A DNA stretch of 47,736 bases, taken from positions 40,068,265 through 40,116,000 of the forward strand of contig CM068745.1 in assembly GCA_035084275.1 (NCBI GenBank), written 5' to 3'. The notes beneath the pieces are model-generated. The model saw nothing but the letters and a program-made list of their open reading frames with translations, had not been told where the DNA came from and did not search any database. Positions 1 to 42,834 of this stretch are shown one piece after another. Origin of the DNA: Hydrolagus colliei. Its lineage: Eukaryota. Position 1 is the stretch's first letter, and the number at the start of each line of letters is the position of its first letter. The translations under genes were made by a program, and so were the position numbers.

Positions 1-79
1 GAGGAGAGAGACACCGAGACACAGACAGGAAAACACAGAGATGGAGAGAGTGAGTGTGAGAGACACAGAGAGAGAGAGA
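1..79. repeat. Degenerate (GA)n/(GACA)n microsatellite
   Basis: Visible GA/CA dinucleotide periodicity. Confidence 0.8.
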
Positions 80-256
80 TATTTACCTCCTGAGGAGATA
101 GGCCTCGAATGCGCTCGCACCTCTGAATGCGCTCGCAACTCGCGACACGCACCCATGCGCAGTACGAAAACCCCGAAAATATAGATATATCAGTATATCT
201 TGATATGAGCCCATCGATATATCTAAATTGGAAAATTTCCATATCGACGGACCCTA
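1..256. mobile_element. Right end of a non-autonomous hAT-like DNA transposon, truncated by the window edge
   Basis: Ends in ATATCGACGGACCCTA (241-256). Shares the GAATGCGCNCGCAC repeats, GATATGAGCCCA and GGAAAATTTCCATATCGAC with the element at 41803-42214. Confidence 0.7.
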
Positions 257-1245
257 CTGTACAGTATAAATTGTTTTCAGTATTATTTTGACTGACTAAA
301 AAATCTGAGATTTATTATAATTCATAAGTTTCCTTTGATTGAATTTCTTCAATTTGATATTTGTCATTCCACCCTCAAGAGAATATGCTTTTTTTTAAAG
401 TAATGTTCAGCACTTGATCTTTCAGTCACTGAAATTTGAAAGAGAAATTTCAAATGCCACGTTGTTTCAATGTATTTTGTTGTTTCACTGTGAGTAATTT
501 TGCCATATAAAATCATTGTATTGGGTTCTTCTATACCTTGTCTCTGAACGTATTCTTTAACAACAGTGAAACCTTGAAAGTAAATGTTTACGTTCTAGGC
601 AATGCTGTGTAGACATTGCATTATGTGATGTAATGAAGTAGAGAGAAACATGATATAAATATTTAAAAATTATTGCTGCATTTTCAATTTGTTCAACTTG
701 TTCACTGCATTATCAAATGCACGGATTATTAGTATTTAATGGCGCCTACAAAAATGTAATGAATGAGTTAACAGTTTAAACTGTAATCTGTTCATAATCT
801 TACTGAACTATTGACTATGCAGATAGCTGGGATCCCCATGTGCTTGGCATTAGATTTGTATGTAGGTGCTTTTTGGATGGAATAATGAAAGTTAATTGAA
901 AGTTAACATCTATCACTGAAATAAGTCAATGTACACAGTACTTAATCTAGTTTGTGCTATACAGTATCACTACACCAAGTTGCTCAAATTGAAGTGTGAG
1001 CTATAAATGCTGAGATTTGACAAGAAACTAAATTTCAATAACTTTTTTTATTATCAACAACTTAATTCTTATTCTTAAAATACAGCAAAACTGTTCCACA
1101 CAATTCGTCAGTAATTTTTAGCTAGTTTTGTTGTGTCTTGAGGTTGGATTCTCACTACTTTGTACATATCCAAGGACTATATTATATTTTAGTCACATTC
1201 AATGTCAATAAAATAGTGGGATGAGTCAAAATCACAATAGATGTT

Positions 1246-1426
1246 AAATAAAAACAGAATCGCTGAGAACACCCAGCAGGTCAGGCTGTTCTGATGAAGA
1301 GTCGTGGACCCGAAACGTTGACTCACTTTTCCTTTCTCCATAGATATTGCCTGACCTGCTGAGTATTCCCAGTGATTTCTGTTTTTGTTTCAGATTTCCA
1401 GCATCTGCAGTATTTTGCGTTTTTGC
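1246..1426 (+). mobile_element. Short Penelope-like (PLE)-derived retroelement with an inverted 5' segment
   Basis: Perfect 13-bp TSD CACAATAGATGTT (1233-1245 and 1427-1439). 1250-1286 is an inverted copy of about 1348-1386. Contains CTGATGA...GAAACGTT and the pseudo-LTR-type tail TTTCCAGCATCTGCAGTATTTTGC. Confidence 0.75.
1286..1325 (+). ncRNA. Minimal type I hammerhead-ribozyme-like motif (degenerate)
   Basis: gtt-CTGATGA-A-GAGTC-gtg-GACCC-GAAAC-GTT-gac. Catalytic boxes are intact. Stem II has 4/5 pairs, stem III is loop-less (AC/GT), stem I is about 3 bp. Confidence 0.6.
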
Positions 1427-1594
1427 CACAATAGATGTTCCCTGGTTACATACTGCCCCGCATAGTTTGTGAATTTATTGTAGTGCACATCTAACAATAA
1501 CGACACTACTGATCAATGGGGACTTAAAATAAGCTCAAAGATGGGAAAACAGGCACATTATCAATATCAAAGCTGTATTTTGAAAGCTAACTGA

Positions 1595-15680: not shown

Positions 15681-16678
15681 ATTCATAGATTCATAGAATT
15701 TTACGGCACAAAAGGAGGCCATTCGGCCCATCTAGTCTGTGCCGGCTCTTTGAAAAGAGCGATTCAATCCCACTGCCCTGCCCGCTCCCCATAGCCTAAT
15801 AGACCTGTTCTCCCTAAATAAAGATCTAATTCCCTTTTAAAAGTTGTTATCGAATCAGCCTCCACCACCTTTTCAGGCAATGCATTCCATATTCGAACAA
15901 CTCGCTGAGTGAAAAAAATTCTCCTCAGCTCCCCTCTACTTCACCTTGAAACTATTTTAAATCTGTGACCACGAGTCACAGATTCGCCCACAAGTGGAAA
16001 TAGTTTTTTTCTATTTGCCCTGTCGAAACCCCTCATGATCTTATAAACCTCTATTAGGTCTCCCCTCAATCTTCTCTGCTCCAGAGAGAATAACCCTAGC
16101 CCATCTAGCATCTCCTCATAGCTGAAGTCCCTCAATCCTGGCACCATCCTAGTAAATCTTCTTTGTACCCTTTCCAAAGTCTTCACATCCTTTCTGTAGT
16201 GTGGTGACCAGAATTGAACACAGTATTCCAGCTGTGGCCTCACCAAAGTCTTATAGAGGTTAGTCAGCACTTCCTGACTTTTGTACTCTATACCCCTATT
16301 TATAAAGCCTAGTATCTCATATGCCTTCTTAACAGCCTTGTCTACCTGTCCTGCCACCTTCAACGAGTCACTAACACAAATCCCCAGGTCTCTCTGTTCC
16401 TTCACACCATTTAAAATTTTACTATCTAGCCTATATTGCCTCCCTTCATTTCTTCTCCCAAAATGCATCACCTCACACTTCTCTGCATTAAACTTCATCT
16501 GCCATGTGTCTGCCCACTTTACCAATTTGTCTATATCCTCTTGCAGATGGCTACTATCCTCCTCACTGTTTACTATTCTCCCTAACTTAGTGTCATCTGC
16601 AAACTTGGAAACTGTACTCCGTACACCCAAGTCCAGATCATTGATGTAGATTACAAACAGCAATGGTCCCAATGGTCC
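15681..16678 (-). mobile_element. 5'-truncated CR1 LINE with intact 3' UTR and (CTATGAAT)n tail
   Basis: RT ORF, 3' UTR GCTCTTTTCAAAGAGCCGGCAC...GGGCCGAATGGCCTCC, and an octamer tail. Confidence 0.95.
15764..16670 (-). pseudogene. CR1 ORF2 C-terminal part (reverse transcriptase domains 4-7 and C-terminus) with one premature stop
   Basis: LGPLLFVIYINDL, KFADDTKL, WQMKFNAEKC, LYKTLVRPQLEYCVQFWSP. A TGA at 15941-15943 is followed in frame by SRGELRRIFFTQRVVRIWNALP...GQWD*. Confidence 0.92.
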
Positions 16679-18574
16679 CATTTGGGTCACTTAATCCATG
16701 ACTGTAACAATGGGACACATTAATACATTGCTACAGAGAAATTAATACAATGCTGTGCAGTGTAGGTGGAATGAAGTGAAAAATAATAAAATAATCTGTC
16801 GCTTAAATTTTACCCAACTCAGATATGAGGCTTGCACAGTGGTATATTTCAAATTTGTAAACATGAATTACACACAAACAGATTTTGTAATAGTAATCTG
16901 AGGTTGTATTTTTTGTACCAATCAATTTGACATCAATGCATACCTTACTACTATCGGATAAAAACAACAAAATAATAAGAAGAAGAAGAACAAAATTATG
17001 CTTGTATGGGAGGAAGACGGTCCACTTCAGGAAAGAAACAAACAACTGAAGATGCAATTGTGAATCAAAACCTATAAGAGCCGACATCAGCAAGGACCAT
17101 GATTCTTACCTTTTAATACATTGTATTGCGTTGTTCTGTGTCACAAGCACCTATATTGATCTGTGTTACATGAAAACGCTATCCTTGCAATGCTTTAGTC
17201 TCTTTGGGCATGGTGAATTTGTGTTTGCCAGTGAGAGAATTTTGGATTGGGAATAAGAAGGTTTCCCATAGTTTGTACTGTACGTACCTACTTTGAGCAA
17301 TCCCAATTCAGGTAGGAATGATCCAGGATAAAACCCCTCTATCTGTCCAAGTAAAGTATTATAACTACAAAGAAGTCTGTTACATCAGTGGACTTTCCAT
17401 TCCAGCACCAGTTATTCCTGTGACCTCTCAGAGATAATCTGTCTAATAGTATGCATTCCTTATAAAGCCAGTTCCCGGAGATGAAAGAACAGTCTTCTAA
17501 TTGAGAGCACCACCCTGTACCCAAATCTGCATTATTCTGTGTCAGCATGTACAGATTGTTTCATGTAATTTTGTACCTCCAGGGTTAGATATCCAATTAT
17601 GTTATTAACCTCTGATGTTTCATTCCCATTGTTCTTCATTGTAAAGCCGCTTGAGCTCAAAACAGCAGCAGACATTTTTCAAAGATACTAACGCAAAGGA
17701 GAAAAAAAGTACAAAATATCCAGTGGGGATAAATCAATTAGAACTATACTTGTGGCTTATTTGAGGCTGTGCTTTTCATGTTTGTGGAAGCTCCAAACCA
17801 CATAATGCATGCAGTCTATATTTTTTCTTTTTCACCTTTGAATTTCATATATTTCCACTTTTTTCTACACTTTACATACTATTCACTTGCTGATTCTCTA
17901 ATTTCTTTTTCCACGTTTGCTTTTAACATTTGGTTCTTTTCTTCTGTAAGCCCTTTCTAAATTGCATTTTTCTGAATTGTCCTTTCCTGTGAGCTGCAAA
18001 TGATAATGTTCTGAGTGCTGCTCATCACAGTAAAAAAAAATTGCTTCAGGTTAACAGCAGTAGATCCTGGATTAGAAAATTGATGGAAGTAGAGAAATGA
18101 ATCACTTTGACAACTGGATGGGACAGACGAGCAGATACTCCAAATGCAAGAAAAAAACATTTAGCCCATTCAGCATACACTTAAGGGTAATCTAATTGCA
18201 TTGGAATAGAACTGATTTTTTTTAAAAATCTTAAAACGAATGCTAACTGGTGTATGAAAAATGTTAGACTGACTTGTAAGAATGCATGTTTTGTGAATGA
18301 TTTGACTTGTGTAAATGCCAATATTTATGCTAACTCAAATACATTCGCAAAACATGGGCAGATTTTACATAAAACATAGGAAAAAGCAGATCGGCATAGA
18401 CACTGGTACAATGTGTGCAGACCATCTGGGAGCAGAACTGTGATTAGTTAAGGACATGGAATTAATATTGTGTGAAGGTGCGATACTCTGCATTTGCAAA
18501 AATCAGGCTTATTTAAGCTATCATCATTTTTAGAAACAAACAATATCAGCTAATTATTTTCACCTCATTCACCT

Positions 18575-18643: not shown

Positions 18644-18752
18644 TTATTAACTTGCAAACTTACTGTTTAGATCTGGCCAATAGTTTTCCTCTCATTTTTC
18701 ACTGGCTTAATGTCCAACCCATCTATTTTAAGTATATGTGAAGGTCACTGTT

Positions 18753-19268
18753 GAATCCTGCAGCTCAGTTTTAGAGCACTCGCCTTACAAGCGAGAGATC
18801 TGGGTTCAATTCCTGGCAGGTTGAGATAATCCCTCAAAAAACACAATAATAAAATTGGTCATTTCAACCCACGTCTGTTTGTGGGATACTGCTGTGTGCA
18901 ATTGACTGCCACATTTCTCCCACGAATAGACAGTCAATTCACTTTACAGTATATTCTGTGAAGCGCTTTGAGACGTCGATAAGACATGAAAAATGCTATA
19001 TCAAATGCAAGGATTATTATTATATTATTATATATATTGGGTAAGTTTCCTTACCCCACATGCCTAAGACTAATCCCTCCCCCCAAAATTAAATAAATAA
19101 ATAATAATTTGGTCACATAATTCACGATTGTGTGCAAAATGGCTGTCGTGTTTCGCCTACAAATATACAGTCAATTCATTTTACAGTATATTCTGTGATG
19201 TGCTTTGAGACATCTAGAAGACTTGAAAAACACAATATCAAATGTCAGGATTATTATTATTATTATTA
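18753..19268 (+). mobile_element. Two tandem or nested copies of the tRNA-derived SINE
   Basis: One head (GCTCAG, CTCGC-CTTACAA-GCGAG, GGTTCAATTCC) followed by two Deu-like bodies, each ending in GGATTATTATT. Confidence 0.85.
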
Positions 19269-20899
19269 GATTGTTGTAAGTTGTTACGGTGGCGATGTAG
19301 TTTCCAATCTTCATATACCAGTCTCTTAGTTCCTGTCCTCATCTCTTCTGGTGGCTATGAGTGTAGATGTCAGTTCCTCCTGCCACTTGCTTTACCAGAG
19401 CAGTGACAGAGATCCAAGTTGATTCAACTCTTGTATCAAGTGGCAATTTAATTCCATAAAACAAAATACAGTGTCTTCACTTTATATTGTATGACTTCTT
19501 TATAACATTGTAATCCAATTCCCAAAAGCTTGTTCAAGAAAATAATTCACTGCTACAGAAATGTGGGATTTATAATGATAATTATGTCTTTTTACTCGTG
19601 CCAATATTTCAAATTTAATTAATGAAGCAGGAATGAAAGAAGACTTATTTTCCCCTAAAGCTCAAAAATTTATTATTCATCCATAATCAACATCCTTCGA
19701 TTCATACTTCATATTTGTCTGAATGATATACCTTACAAGGTTTTCAAATTGTCATATCAAGGGTAAACAGTAAAAATGTAACACAGCTGCTTTTCTTTGC
19801 ACTGTTTCCTATCTGTATTTGTCATCTTAAGTAGTTGTCTTGAAACAAAGCATGTTTTCTCTTTTCATAGGATAATATCACCACATATTGCATTCCATGG
19901 AATGAGATTTTTGGAATGAGGTTACAATATTTGCCATTGGATCAAGACCTCTGTATCAGCGTTATTGTAAGACCTGTTATAGAGTGAGGCAGAATACTTG
20001 AAGAGTCTTTACCTTCAGATGAATTTCCATCTATTGAAGCAGCCCATTGTCCAATAGAATCACTCAATCTATCCATTGTTCCCAAATGCTTCGTTTATTT
20101 TGTTCTTTTTTTTATTAACACATGCATGTAACTCACATTAATGGCTTTGCAGGGCATGGCCAATACTTTCTGGTAGCTCATTGTCAATGGAAAGATATTG
20201 ACTCCGTCAATGCATGATGTTTCCAACATGTTTAGAATTCTGTTGGCCTTGTATTTTGATTGCCATGTACCATAACTCCTCCCCAAAAATGCAACTGAAG
20301 GCCTGCGGCCATCCTGCCCGCCTGCTTCCTCTCTCTGATGAACCAATTCTAAAAGGCATTTCACATTCTGAAAGGCAAATGGATATCCTGACAACTGTGT
20401 CTCCCAATCTCTGGCTCCCACAGTCAGATAGTGAGCCACATGACTGATGAGAGAGAAAGGGGAATGAGAAAGAACAGCGTTTCAGGTTTCACTATCAGGA
20501 CAGACAATCAGAGCTTTGCTCGGCCACCACCAGGGTGACCGAGGAAAGATATTGTTCTCGATGCTGTGCAGTTTCCTCACAGCAACCTCCCTCTTTACCC
20601 AGTGAGAAACTTCTCTACAGCTACTCTCGCACGCACAAACACACACCACTGCAATTGCATAGCAAACACTGGTTTGCTTCATGTCTCCTCACACCATTTG
20701 CCTCAACCATTGCCATTCTGCCCCCATTCTATGAAGCTCCATTCCCGAAGTCCCTCGAACTTCCTCCTTCCTCTCTTTCAAGGCATGTCATCATTTCTCC
20801 ATTGCGGAACCCTCAACTCCCATCCCCTCTCTGAGTGCCCAGGTGGCAGTGACAAGCATTTGAGATTTCCTCCTGATAATAATAAAAATAATGAGAATA

Positions 20900-29209: not shown

Positions 29210-29350
29210 TTTTCTAACGAAAAGTCATTGACCTGAAACATTAACTAATTTTCCTCTGTCTCCATGGATGTTGCCTTATCTGCTGCATGTTCCGAGTGAC
29301 TTCTGTGTTTATACCAGCATTTCCAGCATCTGTAGTGTTTTGCCCTTTGT
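29210..29350 (+). mobile_element. Older copy of the Penelope-derived unit
   Basis: CTAACGA-AAAGTC-ATT-GACCT-GAAACATT ... TCTCCATGGATGTTGCC ... TTTCCAGCATCTGTAGTGTTTTGC is colinear with 1291-1425. Confidence 0.65.
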
Positions 29351-34430: not shown

Positions 34431-34557
34431 TCACAACTTGAGTCTTTTCACGACTTGAGTCTCCATGCCCAAGTGGAACAACAAACATGTTTAACTTTTG
34501 CCTAGACATTCATTTCTCTGTGAAACACTTCATGAGATGTATTTCTACATTAAGGTT

Positions 34558-34866
34558 CAGTCCTGTAGCTCAGTGGTTAGAACACTTGCCTCGCAAGTTA
34601 GAGACCTGGGTTTGATTCCCAGCAGGGTGAAAACTTGGGCAAGTTTCCTTACTCCACATACCTGATAATAATCCTTCAAGAAGTAAATAAAATAATAATT
34701 TGGTCAATCAATCCATTCCTGTTTATGGATACTGCTGTATGAAATTGTTTGTAATGCTTTGCCCACAGATATAGTCAATTCACTTTACAGTATATTCTGC
34801 AAAGCACTTTGAGACATCTAGAAACGTGAAAAGCGCTATCTCAAATGAAAGGATTATTCTTATTAC
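34558..34866 (+). mobile_element. Full-length tRNA-derived SINE
   Basis: A box TAGCTCAGTGG, B box GGTTTGATTCC, Deu-like body, L2-like tail. Confidence 0.9.
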
Positions 34867-36489
34867 TTATAAGGTACTAATGTAATTGCAAGTTGATGAT
34901 TATGTATTTTTCTCCTAATTATATATTCTTGTGCAATGGAGTAACTATAATTACACATTCAAATTTAAATCTCTGCTGCAATATCCTATTGAGCTCCATA
35001 ACAACATTGTTTATGCATGTCTCTGAAAATTTTTGTTGCAAATCCCTTTGCTGAAATGAAAAAAATGTTCCACTTATGGAACTAAATAGAAACGAAAAAG
35101 TAGACTGAATTATGCTCATGTAATTCACAGAACATGAATGTTTTAAATTACTTTACAACTTCATGACATAATAGAAATGTAGGCTATTGTTAAAGAAGGC
35201 ACAAATTAGATGCAGTTATACACTTTATCATTGTAGGTTAGTAAGGATTCTTAGTGCTATCTCCAATTAATAGAAATCATCTGAGTTATGTACGCAATTA
35301 TGGAAATTCATTATCTTAAAAGCTGATAAAACAATTTAAAAATTGTTGCACTTTATTATATACTGTATGTGAAGAACATTTCAATGCATTGACTGGTGCT
35401 GTTGGTAAGTAAAACAGTACAGGATAGCTTCATTCTGTTGCAGTTTTTTTTGAAGGTAAGAATCAACATTGCCACCTGTAATATCCAAGGGTTTAATTCA
35501 AAATAATGTACCCCAAGTCATGCATCCCAAAATAAAGCTTTGATACGTATGCCTCCTGTAACCTTCAGCAAAGGAACTGTGAATAACAGGCTCAGTGTTA
35601 CACTGGAGAATTTGGCAATCAAAAAGTTATTTTCATGATTGGATTAGAAACTATTTTGCAAAGGGATTACGGAACATTTTGACAATTGCTCTCTTTTCAG
35701 AAGGATTTTAAATTACACAAATGTATTAGCCCATTACTACTATTCGCTTGAATTTGAGGTAGATTAATTCACAGCTGTTCCATTTATTGTTACAAACATA
35801 CTGTGTGCTTAGGAATCTATGCACACAGTATGGCTGTAGCAATAAATGGGCTCTTTATGCCCAAGAACAAAGTGTTTACTGTTATACTGTGATGTTTTTT
35901 CGGTTAGTGGCACAGTGCTGTAAGGTCACCACTATTAGCTATCCTGTTGGGCCATCAATACTGGATTCACGCTTCGTGAACATTTACAGTAGTAACTTCT
36001 ATGAGAGAGTAAACCAAATACTGTAAGGCACGTTTCCCACCAATATAATATATGATTCAGAGTAAGCTTTCTGTGAGTCCTCTCATGTTACATTTGCAGG
36101 GGTCATAGGTTTTGTTAGCAGAGATATTATTAATGTGTTAAAGATAACGATGCCTGTAGTAGAATGGTTGGATTAGCCTTCAAAGTTTTAGTATTAGCAT
36201 AATATTTTAGAGAAGAAAATTTGACAACTCCAAAATCCCAACACGTTGCTGTCCAAGTCTGTCATCACATGTTCAATGGTACAGTACTTGAAATTCCTTT
36301 GTTGTGCTTCAATATATGTTAGCGGCATTCTATACACATCCAGTGACTTCCCCAGTCATATTGTCAATAACTGTGAAATGGTTAAAGGACTCTTGATTAT
36401 GTCTCATGGTAGCCTGGTTGGAATTTTAAGAAGTTAAACTGATGCCTCCTATTTTTGTGTGAGGTACAAGATATCACTAATGCCAAGTA

Positions 36490-41802: not shown

Positions 41803-42214
41803 AAGTGTCTGGCGATATATCAATAAATCAGTTATATCAGTATAATTTTTCATATCGATATGCCGATATTGGAAATTTGAATATATCGGTATATCAAAAA
41901 ATTTGGTATAAAAAGAATCAGTATATCGCAAAATATCGGTATATCGTGCCCGACGATATATCGATATATCGGTACAATATAAAACTTTTTCAACTTACCT
42001 TGTCTCCGGCATTGCAAACCTCCTGGGCCTAGAGCACGCATATCGGAATGCGCGCGCACATCAGAATGCGCGCGCACACTGGAATGTGTGTGCACCTCCG
42101 AATGCATGCGCATACTCAGGATAAAAAAACCCGGTGATATCAATATATCGGTATATATCGATATGAGCCCACCGATGTATCGGTATCGGAAAATTTCCAT
42201 ATCGACAGACCCTA
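41803..42214. mobile_element. Non-autonomous hAT-like DNA transposon (about 410 bp)
   Basis: Imperfect 16-bp TIR (AAGTGTCTGGCGATAT versus TAGGGTCTGTCGATAT on the minus strand, 13/16). Many (C)GATATATCG subterminal motifs and a central 18-bp tandem GAATGCGCGCGCACATC. No clear TSD. Confidence 0.75.
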
Positions 42215-42834
42215 GTTGCAAGGTAAAGGGGTGCAGCCTAGATGAGCCGAAAGTCATTCGCAAATCACCATACAGCAGTATATTATATTAACAGAATGGC
42301 AGTGATGCACATAGTCTCATCTCAGCTCTTGGTGATATGGTAATGTCTGTAATTTATTCTTCAGCTTTTTGTGTGTTAGCTTTACTTAAGGACAAAGTGT
42401 GATCCAAGGCAATGTGCAAAAGAAAAGCTATTGATTAGCCTGAAAAGAGTGGTTGTCATGTTGCCATTAGTTCCTTTTATGTTTTATTCCCTTTGAAGTG
42501 CTTCAACTGGTGGCATCGGTAAGACAAGATCATTAGTTATTTAGCTCCATCGTCCTAACCAGGTATTATTTTATTTAAGAATCACGTAAGATCACATTAT
42601 TTAAGATCACAAAATGATTTTATGTTCTAAAACTTTTGATCACCATGCAGTGAAGCATCTACGCTTGTGTGTGTCATTTCCATGTACTCAAGCTCTAATT
42701 CTGTCTATGCCATCAAAGGAAATTACAGAGTAGAGGCCAGCCATTTCTCTCCCTCCCACTTTAAGAAATTTAAACAAAAACTGCCTATGTATTCTAAAGG
42801 CTCAAAATTCAATAGAAATTTAGAATTGTTGAAT

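What the first reader, a model, noticed from the sequence alone, without database searches (positions are those of the whole stretch)
1233..1439. TSD-flanked 181-bp Penelope-derived unit carrying a minimal hammerhead ribozyme core
Seen: a perfect 13-bp TSD, an inverted 5' arm (1250-1286) complementary to about 1348-1386, and between them CTGATGA-stem II-GAAACGTT. Known: pseudo-LTRs of Penelope-like elements carry minimal type I hammerheads whose loop-less or palindromic stem III is thought to work through dimers, and PLE insertions often show a 5' inversion. Inference: this is a complete non-coding insertion of a ribozyme-bearing non-autonomous family (retrozyme-like). In RNA the inverted arms would form a stem of about 37 bp with the hammerhead in its loop. 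This copy has an A-C mismatch in stem II and a short stem I, so it may be inactive.
Basis: partly seen in the sequence, partly recalled or inferred. Interest (0 to 1): 0.7.

Follow-up and report, generated by a model that had tools for sequence, protein, structure and literature searches.

The report
Run-off Penelope end with misfolded hammerhead
This 181-base insert is two head-to-head pieces of the end repeat of a very common Penelope-type jumping gene in what is likely a cartilaginous fish; its hammerhead ribozyme motif is real but predicted to misfold in this copy, and such short copies likely arise when the copying enzyme runs off the front of the element's uncut RNA.

Summary
Observation confirmed: 13-bp TSD, inverted arm (1246-1286, not 1250) and a minimal type I hammerhead with predicted cut after 1319. 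The unit is not a retrozyme-like family but the pseudo-LTR of an autonomous Neptune-type Penelope element: copies run on upstream into GIY-YIG and RT, and downstream into the 5' UTR. The 181-bp composite is a one-off (37 different junctions in 38 inverted pairs), and 0 of 95 loci are tandem. Inversion, tail and solo hammerheads are in print. The family's stems covary between subfamilies; this copy's G>A at 1300 breaks stem II (predicted pairing 0.001 against 0.96 in a clean copy). Beyond print as far as I searched: 5' ends pile up at the hammerhead's first base (32 of 95, 4.9 expected), not at the cut site (3 of 95), and 13 of 20 internally joined units start there too, which points to run-off from the RNA 5' end followed by template jumps. 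The scan noted the run-off idea before in three notes on other genomes. No transcript start or cleavage was measured.

The parts
1233..1245 (.). left target-site duplication, 13 bp
   Evidence: (family D4)
1246..1286 (-). inverted, tail-less pLTR arm: reverse complement of unit positions 62-103 (window 1349-1390); ends at the short 3' end class of the family
   Evidence: end classes
1287..1288 (+). head-to-head junction; the family has A at 1287; five other loci join the same two arms over a 2-nt AG overlap, so T1287 may be a later change (inferred)
1288..1426 (+). direct pLTR arm (139-nt unit) of a Neptune-type Penelope-like element, beginning at the family's 5' hot spot; 97% identical to the majority sequence of its subfamily
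1288..1323 (+). minimal type I hammerhead motif: stem I 3 bp here (4 in the native context), CUGAUGA 1291-1297, extra A 1298, stem II 1299-1311 with A1300-C1310 mismatch, GAAA 1312-1315, palindromic ACGU 1315-1318, predicted cut 1319/1320
1391..1426 (+). about 33-36 nt 'tail', present on the direct arm and absent from the inverted arm
   Evidence: PMC11167929, PMC8557442
1427..1439 (.). right target-site duplication, 13 bp

Best explanation
The insert is two head-to-head pieces of the pseudo-LTR of a high-copy, endonuclease-bearing (Neptune-type) Penelope-like retrotransposon between a 13-bp target duplication, likely made in one insertion event by the element's own reverse transcriptase, and its hammerhead is predicted to misfold and so likely does not cut. 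Shown: the unit lies behind GIY-YIG and before the 5' UTR in longer copies; copies end at two 3' points about 33 nt apart; 5' ends pile up at the first base of the hammerhead and not at its cut site; inverted pairs carry exactly one tail in 34 of 38 cases. Inferred: the enzyme starts inside the RNA at either of the two points (as shown in vitro for the anole element), copies an uncut RNA and runs off its 5' end, which likely is the transcription start at the hammerhead's first base. The short cDNA then integrates alone, joins a second cDNA primed from the other target strand (this locus), or jumps to an internal point of element RNA and continues. The family hammerhead likely works as a dimer or with protein help; since insertion this copy has decayed neutrally.
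For: Link to ORF: copies extended upstream translate to CX4CX2C linker, GIY-YIG (48% to P0007, E 4e-28; P0007 has Pfam GIY-YIG) and RT (best hit 59%, E 1e-63); L136 holds a near-complete ORF followed by the unit, L129/L134/L135 hold unit then ORF. First-look candidates fall from 3385 (unit) to 1833, 572 and 41 going upstream. In 95 loci picked only by an exact 25-mer at unit positions 61-85: 5' ends at -4..+6 in 32 (4.9 expected, p 2e-19), at the cut site in 3 (5.2 expected). Same hot spot in 19 of 30 copies picked by core pattern, mostly a sister subfamily, and only 2 of 23 copies of a third subfamily extend upstream. 20 units joined directly behind internal element sequence: 13 start at -4..+6; 0 of 11 such junctions shown have a GT donor in the reference and the AG comes with the unit; 8 of 14 composites have a TSD of 8+ bp round the whole. 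Initiator-like CCAGTT at the hot spot. Covariation between subfamilies: G-C 21 / A-U 20 at the base of stem II, U-G 22 / U-A 17 / C-G 7 next to the cut. Folding: stem II probability 0.001-0.002 in this copy, 0.95-0.97 in clean copy L256 as isolated motif.
Against: No transcript 5' end was measured; the RNA reads laid show no pile-up of starts or ends, and come from poly(A) single-cell libraries of a differently coded organism. The hot spot also looks like a 3' splice site (pyrimidine tract, CAG), and the D. virilis intron ends at the same place of its hammerhead (PMC4209133), so a bound factor or splice-related stop is not excluded. The cap signature is weak: G at -1 in 14 of 29 non-C cases, 0.30 expected, p 0.027, looked for after the fact. 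5' ends come from BLAST end points (a few nt of error) in copies about 10% diverged. The 95 loci are the first 100 of 2358 matches, all from 40 Mb of one contig. Composites came mostly from sets chosen for internal sequence (2 of 95 in the unselected set). The covariation rests on about three subfamilies, so on few events, in sets chosen by pattern. Even the clean copy forms stem II at only 0.18 in its 140-nt context. The ORF pieces of this genome gave no Pfam hit of their own.
Confidence: 0.7

Rival explanations
1. Same element and same dead copy, but the 5' hot spot is a roadblock, not the RNA end: the enzyme copies a longer RNA and stalls at the hammerhead's 5' edge because of a bound splicing factor at the CAG, the element's own protein, or structure.
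For: Pyrimidine tract and CAG directly before the hot spot in two subfamilies; D. virilis intron ends at helix I (PMC4209133); about half of the arms that reach +6 go on upstream (31 of 63) and the stop rate is similar on both sides of the hot spot.
Against: Copies that contain the 5' UTR mostly begin at the same base or inside the unit (7 at -3..+9, 1 upstream among 30); no shared upstream exon in 96 arms; junctions lack GT donors.
Confidence: 0.17
2. The unit is an independent non-autonomous, SINE- or retrozyme-like family, transcribed from short master copies or circles and mobilised in trans.
For: Short units far outnumber body sequence; many have sharp ends and TSDs (22 of 90 with 8+ bp against 14 of 1000 in shuffled flanks); a 2026 preprint proposes that pLTRs give rise to retrozymes (10.64898/2026.07.22.740005).
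Against: 0 of 95 loci with a second same-strand hammerhead within 500 nt; short and long copies share subfamily marks; solo units lack the upstream promoter-like stretch; no ends at the cut site, as cleavage-defined monomers would give; composite not repeated.
Confidence: 0.07
3. The inverted arm arose by fold-back self-priming (of the cDNA or of an antisense RNA) rather than by two cDNAs primed from both target strands, the tail being removed by the endonuclease.
For: Proposed for rotifer Penelope in PMC3846280 (Discussion); short palindromes at some junctions (L139, L143, L302).
Against: Self-copying should run to the same 3' end, yet 0 of 38 pairs have two tails and 34 have exactly one; the anole enzyme extends both target strands and starts at both tail ends (PMC11167929).
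Confidence: 0.2
4. This copy has been co-opted as a host RNA element (hairpin or ribozyme).
For: Stable hairpin; core boxes intact, as in only 23 of 76 whole motifs.
Against: The six arm differences are mismatches or wobbles, none compensatory; stem II broken; intact boxes are expected at 3-4% divergence; no exon-like frame near it.
Confidence: 0.03

Closest known systems
EN+ Penelope-like elements, Neptune/Nematis type (PMC8557442, passages; PMC3846280, passages and Discussion)
   Same: RT, CX2-5CXXC linker, C-terminal GIY-YIG; strong 5' truncation; partial tandems; inverted 5'-truncated copy at the 5' end; 30-40 bp tail on one end only; TSD of 8-15 bp; solo pLTRs
   Different: The passages I read do not describe a fixed 5' boundary at the hammerhead or units joined to internal points; PMC3846280 ascribes solo pLTRs to recombination or deletion. 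Neptune versus Nematis was not separated by a tree here.
Minimal hammerheads of metazoan PLEs (PMC4209133, parts 1-2 of 4: results and discussion)
   Same: Type I, no loop 3, palindromic 15.2-16.2, unpaired base between 9 and 10.1, G10.1-C11.1, short helix I, thousands of single motifs per genome
   Different: Stem II is 5 bp; U at position 17; this copy has a broken stem II and 3-bp stem I
Poseidon element of Anolis, PAc (PMC11167929, main text and part of methods)
   Same: Two internal start sites that bound the tail; both target strands extended; uncut RNA is the main template; hammerhead needs protein
   Different: Other clade; there the ORF starts in stem II; run-off products and jumps in genomes were not analysed in the text I read
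Non-LTR retrozymes (PMC7229834, passages; bioRxiv 10.64898/2026.07.22.740005, parts 1-3 of 5)
   Same: Short non-coding unit with type I hammerhead, related to pLTRs
   Different: Defined as tandem repeats with a hammerhead in each unit, mostly canonical motifs and circular RNA; here single or head-to-head, minimal motif
Minus-strand strong-stop DNA of LTR elements and R2 template jumping (recalled, not tested)
   Same: Short cDNA to the RNA 5' end, then transfer to another template position
   Different: No tRNA primer or integrase; target-primed; jumps land at many internal points

Membership tests
EN+ Penelope-like element (Neptune/Nematis type) | unit physically linked to a PLE RT ORF | tested here: met
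   (L092, L093, L136 ORF then unit; L129, L134, L135 unit then ORF); not at this locus itself
EN+ Penelope-like element (Neptune/Nematis type) | C-terminal GIY-YIG endonuclease | tested here: met
   by pairwise match to P0007, the genome's own pieces gave no Pfam hit
EN+ Penelope-like element (Neptune/Nematis type) | CX2-5CXXC zinc-finger linker between RT and EN | tested here: met
   C-X4-C-X2-C in L046 and others; feature from PMC8557442
EN+ Penelope-like element (Neptune/Nematis type) | pLTR in direct or inverted form, 30-40 bp tail on one end, TSD | tested here: met
EN+ Penelope-like element (Neptune/Nematis type) | RT phylogeny placing it in Neptune rather than Nematis | not tested
   no named reference PLE proteins were on hand; the label Neptune rests on the linker and on the vertebrate host
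Minimal PLE hammerhead (family level) | CUGANGA and GAAA-NUH boxes, extra base before stem II, G10.1-C11.1, palindromic 15.2-16.2 | tested here: met
Minimal PLE hammerhead (family level) | stems I and II supported by covariation | tested here: met
   few independent events (three subfamilies)
Minimal PLE hammerhead (this copy) | able to form stems I and II | tested here: not met
   predicted pairing 0.000-0.002; the changed base favours a rival helix with the 3' strand of stem I (0.97 in the isolated motif)
Minimal PLE hammerhead | self-cleavage as dimer or with protein | not testable with these tools
   needs in vitro assay
Rfam hammerhead families | match to a covariance model | tested here: not met
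   (also no match for a clean copy)
Non-LTR retrozyme | tandem repeats with a hammerhead in each unit | tested here: not met
   0 of 95 loci; single unit at this locus
Non-LTR retrozyme | a repeated unit independent of the autonomous body | tested here: not met
Non-LTR retrozyme | circular RNA | not testable with these tools
   no suitable RNA data

The most novel reading that the evidence does not exclude
Penelope-like elements make a retrovirus-like 'strong-stop' cDNA: the hammerhead is the first 36 nt of the capped RNA and is copied uncut, the enzyme starts about 105 or 139 nt inside, runs off the 5' end and must jump templates to copy the body. The thousands of solo and head-to-head units are failed jumps, and units fused to internal points are mis-aimed jumps, which would explain pseudo-LTRs and partial tandems without RNA circles.
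Probability: 0.5. Interest if true: 0.62.

Novelty: new member of a known kind. Interest (0 to 1): 0.33.

Why it matters
The locus itself is one of thousands of dead Penelope ends and matters little. The family's breakpoints bear on an open question, how these elements replicate and what their hammerhead is for: the genome record argues against cut or circular RNA as the usual template and for run-off at a fixed 5' end followed by template jumps, and it names exact positions to test. It also warns that such units can be misfiled as SINEs or retrozymes.

Tried and rejected
Rfam scans of the window, the locus and a clean copy: no hammerhead. Pfam on this genome's ORF pieces: nothing. Sequencing runs: no RNA holder listed; reads laid at 85% cover only the repeat, both strands, none on the flanks, no start or end pile-ups, 79 of 5806 and 59 of 5238 at 99+%: family-level signal only, no evidence on this copy. 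A DNA run holds both flanks joined to the insert; no empty site among the joints shown (43 not shown). Splicing as the source of internally joined units: rejected, no GT donors. Shared short first exon: none seen. The 181-bp composite as a family: rejected. Cap-derived G: weak only. The tandem count printed was a script error (each arm compared with itself) and was redone. Scripts stopped on errors (redone in 48; 14 of 16 loci printed in 78, the other two in 83). The paper on dimer cleavage of PLE hammerheads (PMC5785218) is not held; I saw only its title in a reference list. No supplements were read; those of PMC4209133 and PMC11167929 (alignments, read coverage) and of the preprint may hold cartilaginous-fish motifs or 5' boundary data.

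Full report
Numbering. Unit position p equals window position 1287+p; position 1 is G1288, the predicted cut lies between 32 and 33.

1. Observation. The 13-bp direct repeat (1233-1245, 1427-1439) is exact and occurs only twice in the window. The insert folds into a long hairpin (-68.3 kcal/mol, z -7.8) because 1246-1286 is the reverse complement of 1349-1390 (36 of 42 columns). Rfam has no match here or in a clean copy.

2. What it is. The insert has 3385 first-look candidates in the 1.0-Gb genome (40 scored); one exact 25-mer of the family occurs 2358 times, control 0; the intact core pattern 3684 times, control 70. Walking upstream through copies gave a 3' UTR, then a GIY-YIG end and a C-X4-C-X2-C linker, then RT (best named hits are shark and ray proteins, hence a cartilaginous fish is likely). 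Candidate numbers fall 3385, 1833, 572, 41 along this walk, the usual 5' truncation. L136 holds a near-complete broken ORF followed by the unit; L129, L134 and L135 hold the unit in front of ORF sequence, and the tail runs on into a 5' UTR (158 candidates). The unit is therefore the pseudo-LTR. PMC8557442 (passages) and PMC3846280 (passages) describe this anatomy: inverted 5'-truncated copy, 30-40 bp tail on one end, TSD.

3. Unselected sample. I took the first 100 of the 2358 exact matches (all in the first 40 Mb of contig C1), which merge into 95 loci. 57 are single, 38 head-to-head pairs. 3' ends of the 133 arms fall mainly at 90-114 (66) or 129-139 (58). Pairs have exactly one tail in 34 of 38 and two tails in none (p 2e-7 against independence). 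The pairs have 37 different junctions. 16 genome matches resemble this locus's junction; 15 are family copies, one is not (L333), and they differ in subfamily and in which arm has the tail, so the composite recurs by a 2-nt overlap and is not a family. No locus has a second same-strand hammerhead within 500 nt (0 of 95), which fails the retrozyme definition of PMC7229834 (passages) and of the 2026 preprint (parts 1-3).

4. The hammerhead. Among 76 of 133 arms that span the motif, 23 keep all core bases; losses are mostly at CpG sites, and non-CpG core identity (0.89) is close to that of flanks (0.84), so copies decay about neutrally. Between three subfamilies the stems covary: base of stem II G-C 21, A-U 20, G-U 5, unpaired 5; pair next to the cut U-G 22, U-A 17, C-G 7, unpaired 5, in 51 distinct rows. 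In the oldest-looking subfamily the search pattern fixed the U but not its partner, which is A in 21 of 23. These are few events and the rows were chosen by pattern. All four marks of the minimal PLE hammerhead in PMC4209133 (parts 1-2) are present. In this copy the G>A at 1300 drops predicted stem II pairing to 0.001-0.002 and creates a rival helix; clean copy L256 forms stem II at 0.95-0.97 and stem I at 0.52-0.76 as an isolated motif, but only 0.18 and 0.1 in 140 nt of context.

5. How it likely arose. 5' ends of the 95 pattern-bearing arms: 32 at -4..+6, 3 at 29..37, 29 elsewhere in 7..61, 31 upstream of -4. From the stop rate in 7..61, 4.9 are expected at the hot spot (p 2e-19) and 5.2 at the cut site. 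So the template was uncut, in line with PMC11167929 (main text), and had a discontinuity at the hammerhead's 5' edge. The hot spot recurs in 19 of 30 copies chosen by core pattern (one shared with the first sample). Of 30 loci chosen for the 5' UTR, 7 have a unit in front that starts at -3..+9, one extends upstream. Across all fetched loci 20 units sit directly behind internal element sequence, 19 of them within 1.3 kb of the tail; 13 start at -4..+6 and 2 at 29..37, one of which really starts at 0 and has an inner deletion. Junctions show short overlaps or a few extra bases and no GT donor (0 of 11 shown), and 8 of 14 composites tested have one TSD round the whole. Position 0 is A in 57 of 96 arms that start here, inside an initiator-like CCAGTT with an AT-rich stretch near -30 (motif labels recalled; PMC3846280 reports TATA and Inr-like motifs in a rotifer pLTR). 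The simplest reading: internal start at about +105 or +139, run-off at the RNA 5' end, then integration, head-to-head joining with a second cDNA (this locus: +139 to +1 and +103 to +62), or a template jump. The RNA start is inferred; a roadblock at a splice-site-like CAG is the main rival. RNA reads did not decide.

6. Novelty. The element type, hammerhead, inversion and tail are in print. Searches for a fixed 5' boundary or jumps in PLEs listed no paper whose title or abstract start says so; the library lacks most subscription papers, and PMC3846280 does mention template jumps for inserts of another kind. The scan's own notes reached the run-off reading on three stretches of other genomes and a 'silenced hammerhead' reading elsewhere in this genome; I had formed the reading before looking (note) and tested it here.

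7. Verdict. Real, ordinary as a locus, mis-filed as a retrozyme-like family; moderately useful as part of a fossil record of Penelope replication. Interest 0.33.

Noticed in passing
window 29212-29343 (+): A second, older copy of the same pLTR unit (78% to the majority sequence, positions 2-131), also starting at the hammerhead's 5' edge, core boxes damaged.
   Followed up: partly
window 18754-18824 and 34559-34630 (+): tRNA-like heads (Rfam tRNA 51 and 46 bits) at the start of very frequent repeats (18747-19277, 34548-34876); likely tRNA-derived SINEs.
   Followed up: no
window 15941-16690 (-): 249-aa open frame that reads like the RT end of a CR1-type LINE (label recalled).
   Followed up: no
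window 3-265 and 41804-42216: Repeated stretches with similar GATATATC-rich ends, possibly ends of a DNA transposon.
   Followed up: no
window 1185-1215: A 15-bp near-perfect palindrome with 1-nt spacer 17 nt left of the TSD (I5).
   Followed up: no
L138:4770-4790 (oriented as fetched, +): A run of nine A and a G between internal ORF sequence and a unit starting at position 0, as if the jump landed on a polyadenylated end.
   Followed up: partly
L125, L126, L127 (contig C30, about 185 kb apart): Three near-identical long Penelope copies with the same flanks, likely a segmental duplication.
   Followed up: no
P0002, P0003: Ray proteins named as chitinase-domain or kinase-domain isoforms match the PLE RT at 59%: probably gene models that took in Penelope sequence.
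   Followed up: no
unit positions 86-106 (window 1373-1393): The short 3' end sits at a T-rich tract ending in CAG that also resembles a splice acceptor; not tested.
   Followed up: no
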